DNA of 64,000 nt, taken from Candidatus Magasanikiibacteriota bacterium (GTDB lineage Bacteria > Patescibacteriota > Patescibacteriia > Magasanikbacterales > GWA2-37-8). Below the pieces are notes generated by a model that saw only the letters and a program-made list of their open reading frames with translations, had not been told where the DNA came from and did no database searches. Where the stretch lies: positions 2,513 to 66,512 of the forward strand of contig JBAYIZ010000005.1 of assembly GCA_041665405.1 (NCBI GenBank), given 5' to 3'. A program made the position numbers and the translations under genes. Positions 17,925-37,379 of this stretch are shown here, one piece after another. Each line of letters starts with the position of its first letter. The first letter of the stretch is position 1.

Positions 17925-17962
17925 ACCTGCACCCCTCATTTTTGAGGGGTGTTTTTTAAACT

Positions 17963-18991
17963 ATGATTATAGTCGCCTCCGTTGGAGTAAACTCTCTAAC
18001 CGATGAAAAAATTAGAAAAATGATTTTGGCTGGGGCTGATATATTCCGCTTTAATTTTTCTTATCGTTCAATAGATGAAAACATAAGAAATATTGAAACT
18101 ACACAGGACGTTATATCTGATTTACACGCTGGAACCAAAATATTATTTGATTTACCGGTTAAAAAATACCGACTTGGCTATTTTGATTTGAAAGCATTCG
18201 CAGTTAGAGAAAATGAAGAATTTATTTTCAAATACGCTTCTTATTCTCCAGATTGCAATGAGTTTATACCAGTAAATATTAATCAAATTGGCAATAAGGT
18301 TGATATAAATCAAACGGTTACTATCAGCGATGGCGAAATCGCCATACAAATAACTGAGATAATCGATTCCAATACGATTAGAGCAAAAATTCTTAACAAT
18401 GGAATAATCTATTTCAACAAATCTTTTAATATCAAATATTATCGACCTGAACAAGAATTATTAACAGAATACAAACAAATAATTGAACAAACAAAGCATT
18501 TGGAACCAAATTACATTGCCGTACCATTTATAAACGCAAATTTTAACATCGAATTTAAAAATCTTATCAAACAACAAAACATCAATACTAAACTAATAAT
18601 AAAAATTGAACACCAAATTGACGAGGGAGAATTAAAATCAATCATTCAAGACACAGACTACGACATGATATTGATGGATCGTGGCGAAATGGGAGTGAAT
18701 TTGCCGTTTGAAAAAGTCGGATTGTGGCAAAAGCATATTTGTATGATTGCAAAACAATATAAAAAGAAAATCCTAATTTCAACACAGATATTAGAAAGTA
18801 CAATCAATAATTTTGTCCCCCACCGCTCAGAGATTCTTGATCTTACTAATATGATTTTAGATAGAATAGACGGCATCATATTTTGTCATGAGACAGGTTT
18901 TGGTATGCGCCCGGCATATTCTATTCATGTCGCAAAAAAAATAATAAATGAAGTAGAAAAACACATAAATAACCACAAACAAAGTGAATAA
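17963..18991 (+). CDS. pyruvate-kinase-like protein (barrel A/B domains only; no C-terminal regulatory domain)
   Basis: N-terminus IVASVG...ILAGADIFRFNFSYRS resembles the pyruvate kinase (PK) K.VCTIGP...AGMNVARLNFSHG. KLIIKIEHQIDEG matches the PK signature (IISKIENQEG). MDRGEMGVNLP and ISTQILESTINN..P.R.E..D..N...DGID..FCHETGFG match PK ARGDLGVEIP and TQMLESM...P.PTRAE..DVANAVLDG.D.VMLSGETA. Confidence 0.55.
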   Translation: MIIVASVGVNSLTDEKIRKMILAGADIFRFNFSYRSIDENIRNIETTQDVISDLHAGTKILFDLPVKKYRLGYFDLKAFAVRENEEFIFKYASYSPDCNEFIPVNINQIGNKVDINQTVTISDGEIAIQITEIIDSNTIRAKILNNGIIYFNKSFNIKYYRPEQELLTEYKQIIEQTKHLEPNYIAVPFINANFNIEFKNLIKQQNINTKLIIKIEHQIDEGELKSIIQDTDYDMILMDRGEMGVNLPFEKVGLWQKHICMIAKQYKKKILISTQILESTINNFVPHRSEILDLTNMILDRIDGIIFCHETGFGMRPAYSIHVAKKIINEVEKHINNHKQSE

Positions 18992-20045
18992 GAATAAATT
19001 GGACAAACTAATCCCCCCTCTCACTACTTGGATGAAACTGATTAAAAAGAATACAGAGGATTTGATATTTGAAGATCGTACAAAATATGATCGTCTTGAA
19101 ATTTTGTCATCTCTAACTGGCATTCAGTGTAATATTCCTATTTATAAATTAAAAACAGCTGACATTTTATCAGGCAAAATCAAAATAAATTTTAAGGGGC
19201 GTTGCGGATGGAGATTAATCCCTACAAAAAATAGTTTGCCAAAATTACGAACGCGAGGGAAAAGCATGGTAGCTAACAATAGATGGCTCAAAAAAGAAAA
19301 CATCAACCCACAATTTTATCCGTTAATAGAAATTATCCCCCATTATAACCAAATAATTAATTCTGGGATTTTCGTGATTGATGAAAATAAAATATTTGGA
19401 GAAATCGTGTCTGGAGACTTGTGGCAACTAATTTATGGAACGGCTACAACAAATTCATCCTTCCATTTTTTATATGACTTTAAAAAATGGACTTTTTCCA
19501 GAAGAAATAGCTTAGCAGAAAAAATAATCAAAAAATTAGTAAAACAATTAAAAATAGAAAGTAAAGAAGTAAAAAGAGAAATAAAAAAACAATTAAATGG
19601 ACAATTAAATAATTTTGGATTTATAAAAGGATACTACGAATTTAGAGCGTGGAAAGATAAAATTTTATTAGTAGATTACGATAGAATATTATACAAATTA
19701 TTTGATAAGCACTTGCTAGTAGATAAATTATATTTAAAAGGATCTTGTATCAGCCAAGGAAAATCTTCTGGTAAAATTAAAATTATTACTAATCCCAAAA
19801 AACAATCGGTCTCAAAAAATGACATCATTTTATGTCCGATTATAACGGTGGACTATTTACCTTTGATAAGAATGAGTGCAGGCGTAATCATCAAACAAGG
19901 TGGAATGCTTTCTCACGCAGCGATAATTTTAAGAGAAATTAAAAAACCGTGTTTGGCATTACCTAGCAATATAATAAACAAATTGAAAAATAATGACATG
20001 GTAACTTTGGATGCATACACTAATCAAATTATTATCAACAACTAA
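18984..20045 (+). CDS. protein with C-terminal PEP-utilizing-enzyme mobile (phosphohistidine swivel) domain; ~250-aa N-terminal region of unknown function
   Basis: The C-terminal VIIKQGGMLSHAAIILREIKKPCLALP matches the PEP-utilizers motif GG.TSHAAI.ARE.GIP.VVG. Overlaps the PK-like gene by 8 nt. Confidence 0.5.
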   Translation: MNKNKLDKLIPPLTTWMKLIKKNTEDLIFEDRTKYDRLEILSSLTGIQCNIPIYKLKTADILSGKIKINFKGRCGWRLIPTKNSLPKLRTRGKSMVANNRWLKKENINPQFYPLIEIIPHYNQIINSGIFVIDENKIFGEIVSGDLWQLIYGTATTNSSFHFLYDFKKWTFSRRNSLAEKIIKKLVKQLKIESKEVKREIKKQLNGQLNNFGFIKGYYEFRAWKDKILLVDYDRILYKLFDKHLLVDKLYLKGSCISQGKSSGKIKIITNPKKQSVSKNDIILCPIITVDYLPLIRMSAGVIIKQGGMLSHAAIILREIKKPCLALPSNIINKLKNNDMVTLDAYTNQIIINN

Positions 20046-36394: not shown

Positions 36395-36445
36395 GATTTC
36401 ACCAACCCACACCGTCGCTGAAGTAGCGATTGGAGATTAGAAGCC

Positions 36446-37267
36446 ATGGCCGAAAAGACTTACATGTCCCTGACTGCAGCCCCCGGAGAGATCCACCACA
36501 TGTACGGCGACAACGTGCACCTGATGCACGACCCGCTGGCCCTGACGTGGCTCGCCCGGCTGTGTCATCCGTCCTGCGTGCAGCCCGAGATCAATCGGCT
36601 CATCACCCTGCTGTACCAAAACCTCGTTCGCGAGGTGATCAACCGCGAGCTCCCGCGGCGGATCGTGCGCTCCGAGACCCGCATGCGCGAGTACACCGAG
36701 CACGGCTACTACGACGGCATCGTCATCGACCCCGACTTCGAGGTGACGACCGTCGACATCATCCGGGCGGGCATGTTGCCTTCGATGGTGTGCTACGACA
36801 GACTCAACGAGATCCTCGACCCCAGCCGCGTCCGCCAAGACCACATCATGATGAGCCGACTGGTCAACGTCGACCAACAGGTCACGGGCGCCGGTCTCTT
36901 CGGCAACAAGATCGCTGGTCCGGTCGCCGGTCGGTTGATCTTGTGCCCGGATCCGATGGGGGCTACTGGTGGTTCCATGGTCGAGGCCGTGCACTTCTAC
37001 ATGAACGAACTGGACGGACCGCCGGAGCGTTTCTGCACGCTGAACCTGATCATCACCCCGGAGTACCTGAAGAAGATCCAGAGCGAGTTCCCCGACGGCC
37101 TCGTGACCGTCTACGCGTACCGCCTGGACCGTGGCTTGTCCGACCCCGACGTGCTGGCCGACATCCCCGGCGCTCAGTGGGACCGCGAACGCGGCCTGAA
37201 CGATCGCCAGTACATCGTGCCGGGCGCCGGCGGCATGGGTGAGATCATGAACAACGCGCTGTCGTGA
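36446..37267 (+). CDS. divergent uracil phosphoribosyltransferase-family protein, GC-rich foreign gene (273 aa, insertions and extended N-terminus)
   Basis: IIRAGML.SMV resembles Upp ILRAGLGM. LILCPDPMGATGGSMVEAV resembles Upp ALIVDPMLATGGS. RQYIVPGAGGMGE resembles Upp GYIIPGLGDAGD. Three long overlapping ORFs on both strands are typical of high-GC coding DNA. Confidence 0.55.
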   Translation: MAEKTYMSLTAAPGEIHHMYGDNVHLMHDPLALTWLARLCHPSCVQPEINRLITLLYQNLVREVINRELPRRIVRSETRMREYTEHGYYDGIVIDPDFEVTTVDIIRAGMLPSMVCYDRLNEILDPSRVRQDHIMMSRLVNVDQQVTGAGLFGNKIAGPVAGRLILCPDPMGATGGSMVEAVHFYMNELDGPPERFCTLNLIITPEYLKKIQSEFPDGLVTVYAYRLDRGLSDPDVLADIPGAQWDRERGLNDRQYIVPGAGGMGEIMNNALS

Positions 37268-37292
37268 TAGACAGCGAAGGAGGACAACGTGT

Positions 37293-37330
37293 CGCCCCTT
37301 CTCCTCCCTTGTCGGGACGGAGAAGGGGCG
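37293..37330 (+). terminator. GC-rich hairpin 3' of the UPRT-like gene (actinomycete-style; no U-tract)
   Basis: CGCCCCTTCTCC...GGAGAAGGGGCG. Confidence 0.35.
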
Positions 37331-37379
37331 GCGCATTCACTTAAATCAAAAAAAAATTAATTGTTTTTTTAATTTATAC

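What the first reader, a model, noticed from the sequence alone, without database searches (positions are those of the whole stretch)
17963..20045. Split, permuted PEP-utilising system: a pyruvate-kinase-like barrel gene translationally coupled to a gene with a C-terminal phosphohistidine swivel domain
ORF 17963 has the PK active-site signature (KLIIKIEHQ, MDRGEMGV, ETGFG) but ends after the barrel. The next gene overlaps it by 8 nt and ends in a PEP-utilizers mobile domain (GGMLSHAAIILRE), preceded by ~250 aa of unknown (possibly nucleotide-binding) sequence. Some Bacillus pyruvate kinases carry a C-terminal PEP-utilizer domain. PEP synthase and PPDK combine ATP-grasp, swivel His and a PK-like barrel in a different order. 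A two-gene split version would be an unusual variant of pyruvate/PEP interconversion.
Basis: partly seen in the sequence, partly recalled or inferred. Interest (0 to 1): 0.55.

Follow-up and report, generated by a model that had tools for sequence, protein, structure and literature searches.

The report
Pyruvate-kinase barrel paired with phosphohistidine-swivel protein
A candidate-phyla (Magasanikbacteria-type) bacterium encodes a stripped-down pyruvate kinase overlapping a gene for a phosphate-carrying "swivel histidine" protein; that protein's relatives normally pair with an ATP-binding domain, so this may be a PEP-driven version of a two-component dikinase, but no biochemistry exists yet.

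Summary
geneA (17963-18991) is a pyruvate-kinase A+B barrel with no C-domain. geneB (18984-20045) overlaps it by 8 nt and ends in a PEP-utilizers swivel domain with the catalytic His311.

This is not a fragmented Bacillus-type PK. The first 248 aa of geneB ("BN") match no Pfam, NCBIfam or PDB sequence. Confident AlphaFold models of BN hit only ATP-grasp folds.

The partner evidence changes the interpretation. BN+swivel is a small Patescibacteria family (239 cluster representatives among 1.84 billion). Its usual partner is a canonical PPDK_N ATP-grasp, either as the gene directly upstream or fused as PPDK_N-BN-swivel. In one monophyletic clade, a barrel-only PK takes that position. That holds in 28 of 68 PK loci, and one natural PK-BN-swivel fusion exists.

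So geneB resembles the "second-site + swivel" component of two-component dikinases such as HpeHI and PpsAB. The PK barrel sits where the ATP-grasp component normally does.

My best reading is a phosphohistidine relay from PEP at the PK barrel, via His311, to the BN site, possibly onto a nucleotide. An autonomous minimal PK plus a regulatory or independent geneB remains a serious rival. I rate it a new variant of a known kind and moderately interesting.

The parts
17929..17952 (+). Terminator-like hairpin (10-bp stem, 6 G-C pairs, T tail). It lies just after the rplA stop and 10 nt before the geneA ATG, marking the upstream boundary of the geneA-geneB unit.
   Evidence: This is a consensus scan only; function was not shown.
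17963..18991 (+). geneA: a barrel-only pyruvate kinase (A barrel plus B lid domain, 342 aa) with no C-terminal allosteric/tetramerisation domain.
   Evidence: PF00224 at E 2.6e-46 covering profile 6-327/328. It matches PK equivalogs only over their first ~345 positions and scores below their cut-offs. PDB PKs align over residues 3-340. Residues conserved in the family (PKM numbering in brackets): R29 (R73), N31 (N75), D63 (D113), R70 (R120), K153 (K207), K214 (K270), E216 (E272), T274 (T328), E278 and E310. D296 is replaced by E242 and H78 by Y34.
18984..18991 (+). 8-nt overlap (GTGAATAA) between the geneA stop and the geneB GTG start, implying translational coupling.
   Evidence: Orthologous pairs overlap by 11 nt (L001) and 4 nt (L004).
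18984..19727 (+). geneB 'BN' domain (aa 1-248). By sequence it is an uncharacterised domain, and it is predicted to have an ATP-grasp-like fold. Invariant or near-invariant residues are E30, D31, K34, R37, K87, R89, E140, E219 and D231 (plus N/D233 and R234).
   Evidence: No Pfam, NCBIfam or PDB sequence match. AlphaFold2 pLDDT is 86-88 and pTM 0.83-0.84. All top 50 Foldseek hits are ATP-grasp proteins (RPH ATP-binding domain, Ddl, MdnC, LysX, ACLY, SCS-beta), with E 5e-5 to 3e-3 and TM 0.29-0.45.
19731..20045 (+). geneB phosphohistidine swivel domain (aa ~250-353) plus the stop codon. The motif is GGMLSHAAIILRE, and the catalytic His311 codon is at 19914-19916.
   Evidence: PF00391 at E 5.7e-15. 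It aligns with the swivel domains of PEP synthases 8a8e, 9dae and 2ols, including the His. H311 is invariant in all homologues aligned. The linker at aa 242-249 has low pLDDT, which suggests it is flexible.

Best explanation
geneA and geneB form a two-protein phosphohistidine relay with three sites.

Site 1 is the PK barrel of geneA, which binds PEP or pyruvate.

Site 2 is His311 on the mobile swivel domain of geneB, which carries the phosphoryl group.

Site 3 is the ATP-grasp-like BN domain of geneB. There the phosphoryl group is passed to a second ligand that is still unknown. I consider a nucleotide most likely, as in the His~P + NDP -> NTP step at the ATP-grasp of succinyl-CoA synthetase.

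The likely direction in a fermentative CPR cell is PEP -> His311 -> acceptor.

In evolutionary terms this is a Patescibacteria-specific two-component dikinase: a PPDK_N ATP-grasp subunit plus a BN-swivel subunit. In the Magasanikbacteria lineage, the ATP-using PPDK_N subunit was replaced once by a PEP-using barrel-only pyruvate kinase.

Shown here: the domain identities, the fold of BN, the conserved His, the gene coupling, the alternative partners and fusions, and the monophyly of PK-linked geneB relatives.

Inferred: physical interaction, PEP-to-His transfer by a PK barrel, the role of BN as acceptor site, and the nature of the acceptor.

For: (1) Coupling. The genes overlap by 8 nt. The pair is kept in orthologous loci with 11-nt and 4-nt overlaps.

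(2) Frequency. 28 of 68 barrel-only PK loci with enough downstream sequence have a BN-swivel gene directly downstream. Three more have one ~0.5 kb further on, about 7 have two tandem copies, and none has a PPDK_N nearby.

(3) Rosetta-stone fusion. P0182 (729 aa) is PK barrel-BN-swivel in one chain.

(4) Same slot, different donor. In L009, L011, L012, L013, L016, L018 and L023, the gene immediately upstream of the BN-swivel gene is a complete stand-alone PPDK_N (E 1e-58 to 1e-107) ending at RPITTL. At least 8 fused PPDK_N-BN-swivel proteins exist, and multi-swivel chains also exist.

(5) Conservation. The conserved BN residues are the same in PK-linked and PPDK_N-linked members, which argues for one BN function in both contexts.

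(6) Single origin. All PK-linked BN domains form one clade in an NJ tree. That fits one swap followed by vertical inheritance down to ~31-40% identity.

(7) Fold. BN is ATP-grasp-like in a confident model, and the swivel His is invariant.

(8) Compositional signature. geneA and geneB share low GC relative to their flanks in three genomes.

(9) Precedents. Two-component dikinases HpeHI, CreHI and PpsAB split the ATP-grasp from a [substrate domain + swivel] subunit (PMC12167813). Enzyme I charges the same kind of swivel His from PEP (PMC9009071 background section; PMC13099321). The PEP-binding domains of PPDK and PEPS do the same in the reverse reaction, and they belong to the same structural superfamily as the PK barrel (this last point is my own knowledge).

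(10) Weak contextual hints of nucleotide metabolism. The pair is embedded in a dCMP-deaminase/dUTPase/ThyA/DHFR/Tmk cluster. A BN-swivel protein is fused to an NTPase_I-T domain (P0145). A Ham1 ITPase and a NUDIX gene lie beside PPDK_N+B pairs.
Against: No PK barrel is known to phosphorylate a swivel histidine.

geneA keeps its lid domain and the residues that bind the ADP phosphates, R70 (R120) and K153 (K207). These are conserved in 28/29 and 26/29 PK-linked members, so geneA may simply be an ordinary ADP-dependent PK.

More than half of the barrel-only PK loci lack geneB, including L005 with otherwise identical synteny. The barrel therefore does not need geneB.

The flanking synteny is itself conserved, so adjacency alone is weaker evidence than usual.

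BN has no sequence-level link to any characterised domain. Its structural matches are only moderate (TM 0.29-0.45).

If BN is a nucleotide site, PPDK_N-BN-swivel proteins would have two nucleotide sites, which is odd.

Only one PK-BN-swivel fusion cluster was found, and I could not rule out an assembly or read-through artefact.

I could not check whether genomes with the PK-geneB pair also encode a PPDK_N elsewhere.
Confidence: 0.45

Rival explanations
1. The two proteins are functionally separate or only regulatory. geneA is a minimal, non-allosteric glycolytic pyruvate kinase that works alone with ADP or other NDPs. geneB is either (a) a VadK-like or PEPut-like autophosphorylating histidine protein that tunes PK or another enzyme, or (b) the swivel subunit of a dikinase whose ATP-grasp partner is encoded elsewhere. 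In that case it merely sits in a conserved syntenic slot.
For: The barrel-only PK family (>112 clusters) occurs without geneB in 37-40 of 68 loci, and in L005 and L006. geneA keeps the PK catalytic and ADP-phosphate-binding residues. The surrounding synteny (rplA ... dCMP deaminase, dUTPase, thyA, folA, tmk) is conserved irrespective of geneB. The PEPut domain of B. subtilis PykA regulates PK activity up to 16-fold (PMC9009071). M. tuberculosis VadK is an ATP-grasp + swivel protein that autophosphorylates and regulates other enzymes (PMC13400623). BN-swivel genes also occur with unrelated neighbours (L014, L015, L017, L019, L022, L024).
Against: Start/stop overlaps are conserved in divergent lineages. 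The PK-BN-swivel fusion P0182 exists. All PK-linked BN domains form a single clade that has stayed beside PK down to ~31% identity and has duplicated in place. No PPDK_N was found within 2.5 kb of 80 PK loci or in the 64-kb window. geneB lacks the regulatory Thr of the TSH motif (it has LSH).
Confidence: 0.35
2. This is the first reader's model in its strict form: a split, permuted PEP synthase or PPDK. The BN ATP-grasp binds ATP/AMP and (pyro)phosphorylates His311, and the PK barrel replaces the PEP-utilizers_C barrel to interconvert pyruvate and PEP. It could run in the gluconeogenic direction, or in the ATP-yielding direction PEP + AMP + PPi/Pi -> pyruvate + ATP.
For: All three functional module types of PEPS/PPDK are present: an ATP-grasp-like domain, a swivel His and a PEP/pyruvate barrel. 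Full-length geneB aligns structurally with PPDK 1kbl over 328 columns at E 1.9e-9, and with PEPS 2ols. BN keeps acidic and basic residues where ATP-grasp enzymes bind Mg-ATP: K87/R89, E219 and D231-x-N/D-R. This rests on motif inspection only. PK is patchy in CPR genomes, and PEPS has been proposed to run glycolytically there (PMC7304191).
Against: In most family members BN follows a complete canonical PPDK_N, either in the same protein or in the adjacent gene. BN is therefore unlikely to be the ATP-to-His charging site. There is no sequence homology between BN and PPDK_N (hhalign probability 0.2%). geneA retains its own nucleotide-binding lid and residues. CPR fermenters have little obvious need for gluconeogenic PEP synthesis (general knowledge).
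Confidence: 0.12
3. The pair is a fragmented or decaying ordinary (Bacillus-type) pyruvate kinase, PK-PK_C-PEPut, split by a frameshift or stop codon.
For: The domain order, barrel followed eventually by a PEPut-like swivel, superficially resembles Firmicutes PK. NCBIfam PRK06354 (590-aa PK) matches the barrel of geneA and the swivel of geneB.
Against: There is no PK_C (PF02887) in either protein. BN is 248 aa with an ATP-grasp-like fold. PK structures 3t05 and 2e28 align only over the 113-144 residues around the swivel. More than 100 barrel-only PK clusters of 335-355 aa end at the same point. BN-swivel is an independent family with other partners.
Confidence: 0.01

Closest known systems
Two-component small-molecule dikinases (HpeHI, CreHI, phenylphosphate synthase PpsAB) and their single-chain relative, rifampin phosphotransferase RPH
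   Same: One subunit carries a second-substrate domain followed by a C-terminal phosphohistidine swivel domain (GGxxSHAAI...RE). The partner subunit, encoded immediately upstream, supplies the phosphoryl group. Relatives of geneB have exactly this arrangement, with a PPDK_N subunit either separate or fused (PMC12167813; PMC4844700).
   Different: In the window the partner is a pyruvate-kinase barrel and not a PPDK_N ATP-grasp. The second-site domain (BN) is about 250 aa and ATP-grasp-like, and it is not the RIF-binding-type domain. RPH structures align with geneB only over the swivel, or via their ATP-grasp domain. The substrate is unknown.
PEP synthase / pyruvate phosphate dikinase (PPDK_N - swivel - PEP-utilizers_C)
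   Same: It combines an ATP-grasp-type domain, a swivel His and a PEP/pyruvate-binding beta/alpha barrel. Whole geneB aligns structurally with the first two domains of PPDK.
   Different: The system is split into two genes and the order is permuted, with the barrel first. The barrel is PK-type (PF00224, with a lid domain) and not PF02896. BN is not PPDK_N by sequence. The family normally carries an additional genuine PPDK_N.
Firmicutes/Geobacillus-type pyruvate kinase with an extra C-terminal PEPut domain (B. subtilis PykA, 2e28, 3t05)
   Same: A PK catalytic barrel is associated with a PEP-utilizers swivel domain. That domain regulates PK activity in B. subtilis (PMC9009071).
   Different: There is no PK C-domain. 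An ATP-grasp-like domain sits in between. The system uses two polypeptides. The motif is LSH rather than TSH, so the regulatory Thr is absent.
Enzyme I of the PTS
   Same: It carries out PEP-dependent autophosphorylation of a homologous swivel His, followed by delivery to a second site or protein. This is the chemistry proposed here.
   Different: EI uses a PEP-utilizers_C barrel and an HPr-binding helical domain. Neither is present here.
M. tuberculosis VadK (Rv1127c), a PPDK-derived ATP-grasp + swivel histidine kinase lacking the PEP barrel
   Same: It is an ATP-grasp-type domain plus a swivel His in a ~350-490 aa protein without its own barrel. It autophosphorylates and acts on partner enzymes (PMC13400623).
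   Different: VadK has a canonical PPDK_N and BN does not. VadK is not coupled to a PK gene.

Membership tests
Pyruvate kinase (EC 2.7.1.40) | PK barrel domain (PF00224) including the B lid domain | tested here: met
   PF00224 at E 2.6e-46 over profile 6-327/328. PDB PKs align over residues 3-340, including the B domain.
Pyruvate kinase (EC 2.7.1.40) | Catalytic and metal/nucleotide-binding residues (PKM numbering R73, N75, D113, R120, K207, K270, E272, D296, T328, E364) | tested here: met
   R29, N31, D63, R70, K153, K214, E216, T274 and E310 are present. D296 is conservatively replaced by E242, H78 by Y34 and S362 by C308. Activity was not assayed.
Pyruvate kinase (EC 2.7.1.40) | C-terminal alpha/beta domain (PF02887) and full-length equivalog score | tested here: not met
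   There is no PF02887 hit in geneA or geneB. TIGR01064 scores 184 bits against a cut-off of 306. All PK models match only over positions ~5-345.
PEP synthase / PPDK | N-terminal PPDK_N nucleotide-binding domain (PF01326) | tested here: not met
   There is no PF01326 hit. hhalign of BN against the PPDK_N alignment gives probability 0.2%. Only the fold is ATP-grasp-like.
PEP synthase / PPDK | Central swivel domain with catalytic His (PF00391) | tested here: met
   PF00391 at E 5.7e-15. His311 aligns with the catalytic His of PEPS structures and is invariant.
PEP synthase / PPDK | C-terminal PEP-utilizers_C TIM barrel (PF02896), with the order ATP-grasp - swivel - barrel in one chain | tested here: not met
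   There is no PF02896 hit. The only barrel is PK-type, encoded by a separate upstream gene.
Two-component small-molecule dikinases (HpeHI/CreHI/PpsAB type) | A subunit made of a second-substrate domain followed by a C-terminal swivel His domain | tested here: met
   geneB is BN (aa 1-248) plus swivel (aa 250-353) with GGMLSHAAIILRE about 40 residues from the C-terminus.
Two-component small-molecule dikinases (HpeHI/CreHI/PpsAB type) | A separate ATP-grasp (PPDK_N) subunit encoded alongside | tested here: not met
   There is no PPDK_N in the 64-kb window or within 2.5 kb of 80 PK loci. The feature is met in non-Magasanikbacteria relatives L009, L011-L013, L016, L018 and L023. The rest of this genome could not be searched.
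Two-component small-molecule dikinases (HpeHI/CreHI/PpsAB type) | Substrate domain homologous to the RIF-binding domain of RPH | tested here: not met
   Full-length RPH structures align with whole geneB over only 113-131 columns, the swivel. [quoted passage not shown]
Two-component small-molecule dikinases (HpeHI/CreHI/PpsAB type) | ATP + substrate + H2O -> AMP + Pi + phospho-substrate via a pyrophospho-/phospho-His intermediate | not testable with these tools
   This needs biochemistry.
Firmicutes-type PK with PEPut extension | PK - PK_C - PEPut in one polypeptide, with a TSH motif | tested here: not met
   There are two genes, PK_C is absent, and the motif is LSH.
ATP-grasp superfamily (for the BN domain) | ATP-grasp fold | tested here: met
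   All 50 top Foldseek PDB hits of the BN-only model (pLDDT 86) are ATP-grasp proteins, with probability 0.92-1.00 and TM 0.29-0.45. This rests on a predicted structure.
ATP-grasp superfamily (for the BN domain) | Mg-ATP binding residues in the canonical positions, and nucleotide binding | tested here: inconclusive

The most novel reading that the evidence does not exclude
Magasanikbacteria run a previously unrecognised PEP-dependent phosphotransferase. A pyruvate-kinase barrel, rather than an Enzyme-I-type barrel or an ATP-grasp, charges a swivel histidine from PEP. A new ATP-grasp-like domain then passes the phosphate to a nucleotide or other metabolite. This would show that the donor module of dikinase-type enzymes is interchangeable between ATP and PEP. 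It would also give these reduced-genome bacteria a PEP-driven route to (d)NTPs or another phosphorylated product.
Probability: 0.3. Interest if true: 0.8.

Novelty: new variant of a known kind. Interest (0 to 1): 0.6.

Why it matters
If the relay is real, three things follow. It would be the first case of a pyruvate-kinase-type barrel feeding a phosphohistidine swivel domain. It would be a natural example of swapping the energy-donor module (ATP-grasp versus PEP barrel) in the dikinase/PTS enzyme superfamily. It would also define a new ATP-grasp-like domain (BN) that no current domain library recognises.

It bears on how CPR/Patescibacteria, with patchy glycolysis and no nucleotide biosynthesis, harvest the PEP phosphoryl group.

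It also has a practical annotation consequence. 'PEP synthase' calls in CPR genomes that rest on PPDK_N plus swivel hits may in fact be PPDK_N-BN-swivel proteins lacking any PEP-binding barrel. These would not be PEP synthases.

Tried and rejected
1. Fragmented ordinary PK. Rejected: there is no PK_C, BN has an ATP-grasp-like fold, and both gene families are independent and widespread.

2. BN as a diverged PPDK_N by sequence. My by-eye motif matches (GE..G, E-F, D-x-x-R) were not supported. hhalign gave probability 0.2%, an HMM search of neighbouring ORFs found no cross-hits, Pfam at E<=10 found nothing relevant, and a PDB profile search returned 0 hits.

3. Recent horizontal transfer as the cause of the low GC (0.30 versus 0.39). 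Rejected: the same pair sits in the same syntenic slot and shows the same relative GC dip in L001 and L004.

4. Another PPDK_N or swivel gene in the window. None was found.

6. Differences in PK active-site residues between geneB-linked and geneB-less PKs as a test of lost ADP binding. geneB-linked PKs turned out to be the more canonical ones, so this does not support a PK barrel specialised away from ADP.

7. Literature searches for a PK + swivel two-gene system in CPR. None was found in the held library.

8. Neighbour annotation of PPDK_N+B loci, to look for a conserved third gene or a substrate clue. Only scattered nucleotide-hygiene genes appeared (Ham1, NUDIX, a weak deoxyribosyltransferase hit), which is not decisive.
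Full report
**1. What is there**

The window carries two same-strand ORFs at exactly the reported coordinates. geneA is 17963-18991 (ATG, 342 aa) and geneB is 18984-20045 (GTG, 353 aa). The geneA stop and the geneB start overlap by 8 nt, GTGAATAA.

A strong terminator-like hairpin (17929-17952) follows rplA and ends 10 nt before the geneA ATG. A 124-nt spacer with a promoter-like site separates geneB from the next gene, a dCMP deaminase. geneA-geneB therefore looks like a bicistronic unit.

The neighbourhood is typical of a Patescibacteria/CPR genome: dprA, topA, rplA, geneA, geneB, dCMP deaminase, an AAA kinase, dut, thyA, folA, tmk. Public copies of both proteins are labelled Candidatus Magasanikbacteria.

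**2. geneA is a barrel-only pyruvate kinase**

- Pfam PF00224 covers essentially the whole protein (E 2.6e-46, profile 6-327/328), and there is no PK_C.
- NCBIfam PK equivalogs match only over their first ~345 positions and score below their cut-offs.
- Solved PKs align over residues 3-340, including the B lid domain.
- The catalytic and phosphate-binding residues are present: R29, N31, D63, R70, K153, K214, E216, T274, E278 and E310. In PKM numbering these include R73, N75, D113, R120, K207, K270, E272, T328 and E364. The metal ligand D296 is replaced by Glu (E242) and H78 by Tyr (Y34).
- This is a large, length-homogeneous family: more than 112 clusters of 335-355 aa, and every source-named member is labelled Magasanikbacteria or simply 'bacterium'. 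The truncation is a stable family trait and not decay.

**3. geneB is an unrecognised ATP-grasp-like domain plus a swivel histidine domain**

- Residues ~250-353 are a PEP-utilizers mobile domain (PF00391, E 5.7e-15). His311 aligns with the catalytic His of PEP synthases and is invariant in all homologues.
- Residues 1-248 ('BN') match nothing by sequence. Pfam finds nothing even at E<=10 on nine members. NCBIfam finds nothing. A PDB profile search finds nothing. hhalign against canonical PPDK_N gives probability 0.2%.
- AlphaFold2 models are confident: whole protein pLDDT 88 and pTM 0.84; BN alone pLDDT 86 and pTM 0.83.
- For whole geneB, Foldseek puts PPDK first (1kbl, E 1.9e-9, 328 aligned columns). 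RPH, PEPS and D-Ala-D-Ala ligases follow.
- For BN alone, all 50 listed hits are ATP-grasp proteins. The RPH ATP-binding domain is on top, followed by Ddl, MdnC, LysX, ATP-citrate lyase, succinyl-CoA synthetase beta and others (E 5e-5 to 3e-3, TM 0.29-0.45).
- PK structures align only around the swivel.

Their 'possibly nucleotide-binding' guess is right at the fold level.

**4. The partner evidence**

A profile of BN searched against 1.84 billion cluster representatives found only 239 proteins at E<=1e-3, so this is a small family. Every source-named relative and nearly every full-length genomic locus comes from a Patescibacteria MAG, apart from a few MAG titles that look mis-assigned.

Typical members are ~365-aa BN-swivel proteins like geneB. 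The longer ones are informative:

| Architecture | Examples |
|---|---|
| PPDK_N-BN-swivel (590-700 aa) | at least eight proteins, e.g. P0160, where BN starts right after the RPITTL end of PPDK_N |
| PPDK_N-X-swivel-BN-swivel, and three-swivel chains | P0149, P0183, P0168, P0150, P0153 |
| BN-BN-swivel | P0142 |
| NTPase_I-T + methyltransferase + BN-swivel | P0145 |
| PK barrel-BN-swivel | P0182 (729 aa) |

Among 19 species-representative genomic loci with full-length BN-swivel genes:

- Seven have a complete stand-alone PPDK_N gene immediately upstream (L009, L011, L012, L013, L016, L018, L023; E 1e-58 to 1e-107).
- Four have further [X+swivel] paralogues beside them (L008, L010, L013, L020); L013 also belongs to the PPDK_N group above.
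- One follows a PPDK_N...swivel protein (L021).
- One follows a PK barrel (L007).

Conversely, I examined 68 metagenomic loci of the barrel-only PK with at least 600 nt of downstream sequence:

- 28 have a BN-swivel gene directly downstream.
- 3 have one ~0.5 kb further on.
- About 7 carry two tandem copies.
- 37 have none.
- None of the 80 loci has a PPDK_N.

In a neighbour-joining tree of BN domains, all PK-linked copies form one clade. It has two paralogue subclades. The window's geneB and the P0182 fusion are of the PK-proximal type. The conserved BN residues are shared by PK-linked and PPDK_N-linked members: E30, D31, K34, R37, K87, R89, E140, E219 and D231, plus N/D233-R234.

**5. Interpretation**

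The PPDK_N + [second-site domain + swivel] arrangement is that of the two-component small-molecule dikinases HpeHI, CreHI and PpsAB, and of single-chain RPH. In those enzymes the ATP-grasp pyrophosphorylates the swivel His, which then carries a phosphate to the second substrate site (PMC12167813; PMC4844700).

geneB corresponds to the [second-site + swivel] subunit, but its second-site domain is different and ATP-grasp-like. In the Magasanikbacteria clade, a barrel-only PK occupies the gene position, and in P0182 the fused position, that PPDK_N holds elsewhere.

The most economical reading keeps BN's role constant and swaps the donor. PEP at the PK barrel charges His311, as PEP does in Enzyme I and in the reverse reaction of PPDK/PEPS. 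The swivel then delivers the phosphate to whatever binds in BN.

An ATP-grasp that accepts phosphate from a mobile phosphohistidine onto an NDP has a precedent in succinyl-CoA synthetase (my own knowledge). SCS-beta and ACLY are also among the BN fold hits.

Contextual hints point weakly to nucleotides:

- the thymidylate-synthesis gene cluster around the pair;
- the NTPase_I-T fusion (P0145);
- Ham1 and NUDIX neighbours.

I rate it lower because most family members already carry a genuine PPDK_N.

**6. Why I am not more confident**

- geneA keeps the lid and the ADP-phosphate ligands. The geneB-linked PKs are in fact the most canonical ones.
- More than half of the PK loci lack geneB, including L005 with otherwise identical synteny. 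The PK is surely able to work alone.
- The conserved synteny weakens adjacency as an argument.
- No PK barrel is known to phosphorylate a histidine.
- The fusion is a single cluster.
- I could not search the rest of these genomes for a PPDK_N.

A regulatory role therefore remains a serious rival. It would resemble B. subtilis PEPut, which modulates PykA up to 16-fold (PMC9009071), or M. tuberculosis VadK (PMC13400623). An independent role for geneB is also possible. I put this rival at about 0.35.

**7. Novelty and verdict**

I found no description of a PK-barrel/swivel two-gene system, or of the BN domain, in the held literature or in the Pfam, NCBIfam and PDB libraries.

The components belong to known kinds: PK, the swivel phosphohistidine domain, the ATP-grasp fold and two-component dikinases. 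The combination, and the apparent ATP-grasp-to-PK partner swap, are new.

- Novelty: a new variant of a known kind.
- Interest: about 0.6.

The decisive experiment is PEP- and geneA-dependent, H311-dependent phosphorylation of geneB, followed by an acceptor screen.

Noticed in passing
window 17963-20045; L001 4977-7107; L004 5001-7108: geneA and geneB have distinctly lower GC than the flanking housekeeping genes in three different genomes: window 0.31/0.29 versus 0.36-0.45, L001 0.39/0.42 versus 0.45-0.47, L004 0.34/0.32 versus 0.40-0.48. This is a persistent compositional signature shared by the pair, not recent transfer.
   Followed up: partly
window 17929-17952 (+): A strong terminator-like hairpin (10-bp stem, T tail) lies between the rplA stop and the geneA ATG, only 10 nt upstream of the start. 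No room is left for a promoter, so geneA-geneB expression may depend on read-through or on a promoter inside rplA.
   Followed up: no
L130-L132, L137-L141, L144, L146, L156 (PK matches, metagenome loci): A geneB-less subclade of barrel-only PK-like proteins carries a co-varying, non-canonical active site: N75S, D113N, K207L, K270R, D296K and T328S (PKM numbering), plus K68Q (window geneA numbering; aligned to PKM E118). It is probably not a standard pyruvate kinase. Some geneB-linked PKs (L149-L154) have D296->N, and L151/L152 also have E272->G.
   Followed up: partly
P0145, P0142, P0150, P0153 (proteins): Unusual BN-domain architectures exist. P0145 is NTPase_I-T (DUF84) + SAM methyltransferase + BN + swivel. 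P0142 is BN-BN-swivel. P0150 and P0153 (1390 and 1494 aa) are chains of PPDK_N followed by three swivel modules. This suggests one donor domain serving several swivel modules.
   Followed up: partly
L007 773-4065; L087, L098, L100, L107, L110, L113: Several loci have PK followed by two tandem BN-swivel paralogues. In the NJ tree the two copies fall into separate subclades, proximal B-I and distal B-II. Some loci, such as L001, keep only the B-II type.
   Followed up: partly
L008 827-4433; L010 727-4071; L013 2003-5167; L020 2281-4459: Other Patescibacteria carry tandem arrays of two or three different [unknown N-domain + swivel] genes next to the BN-swivel gene. The N-domains of these paralogues are not detected by the BN HMM.
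   Followed up: no
L012 1072-2203; L011 4478-5212; L018 4095-4625: Nucleotide-hygiene or salvage genes sit beside PPDK_N + BN-swivel pairs: Ham1 ITPase, a histidine phosphatase, NUDIX, and a weak nucleoside deoxyribosyltransferase hit. This could be chance in small genomes.
   Followed up: no
window 18984-19031: One public gene call (P0001, 337 aa) starts geneB at Met17, which would remove the overlap with geneA. Residues 1-16 (NKxKLDxLIPPLT) are conserved across homologues, which favours the GTG start at 18984.
   Followed up: yes
window 36430-37336: This is a GC-rich island (0.49 versus 0.37 for the window). It holds a 273-aa + strand ORF that looks phosphoribosyltransferase-like by eye (PMGATGGS, PGAGGMGE), and long ORFs overlap it in another frame and on the opposite strand. 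It could be an acquired gene. Not tested.
   Followed up: no
L007, L009, L014, L030 (record titles): Several MAG records carrying this Patescibacteria-type gene family are titled Gammaproteobacteria, Methanosarcinales or Woesearchaeota. These are probably binning or taxonomy mis-assignments.
   Followed up: no
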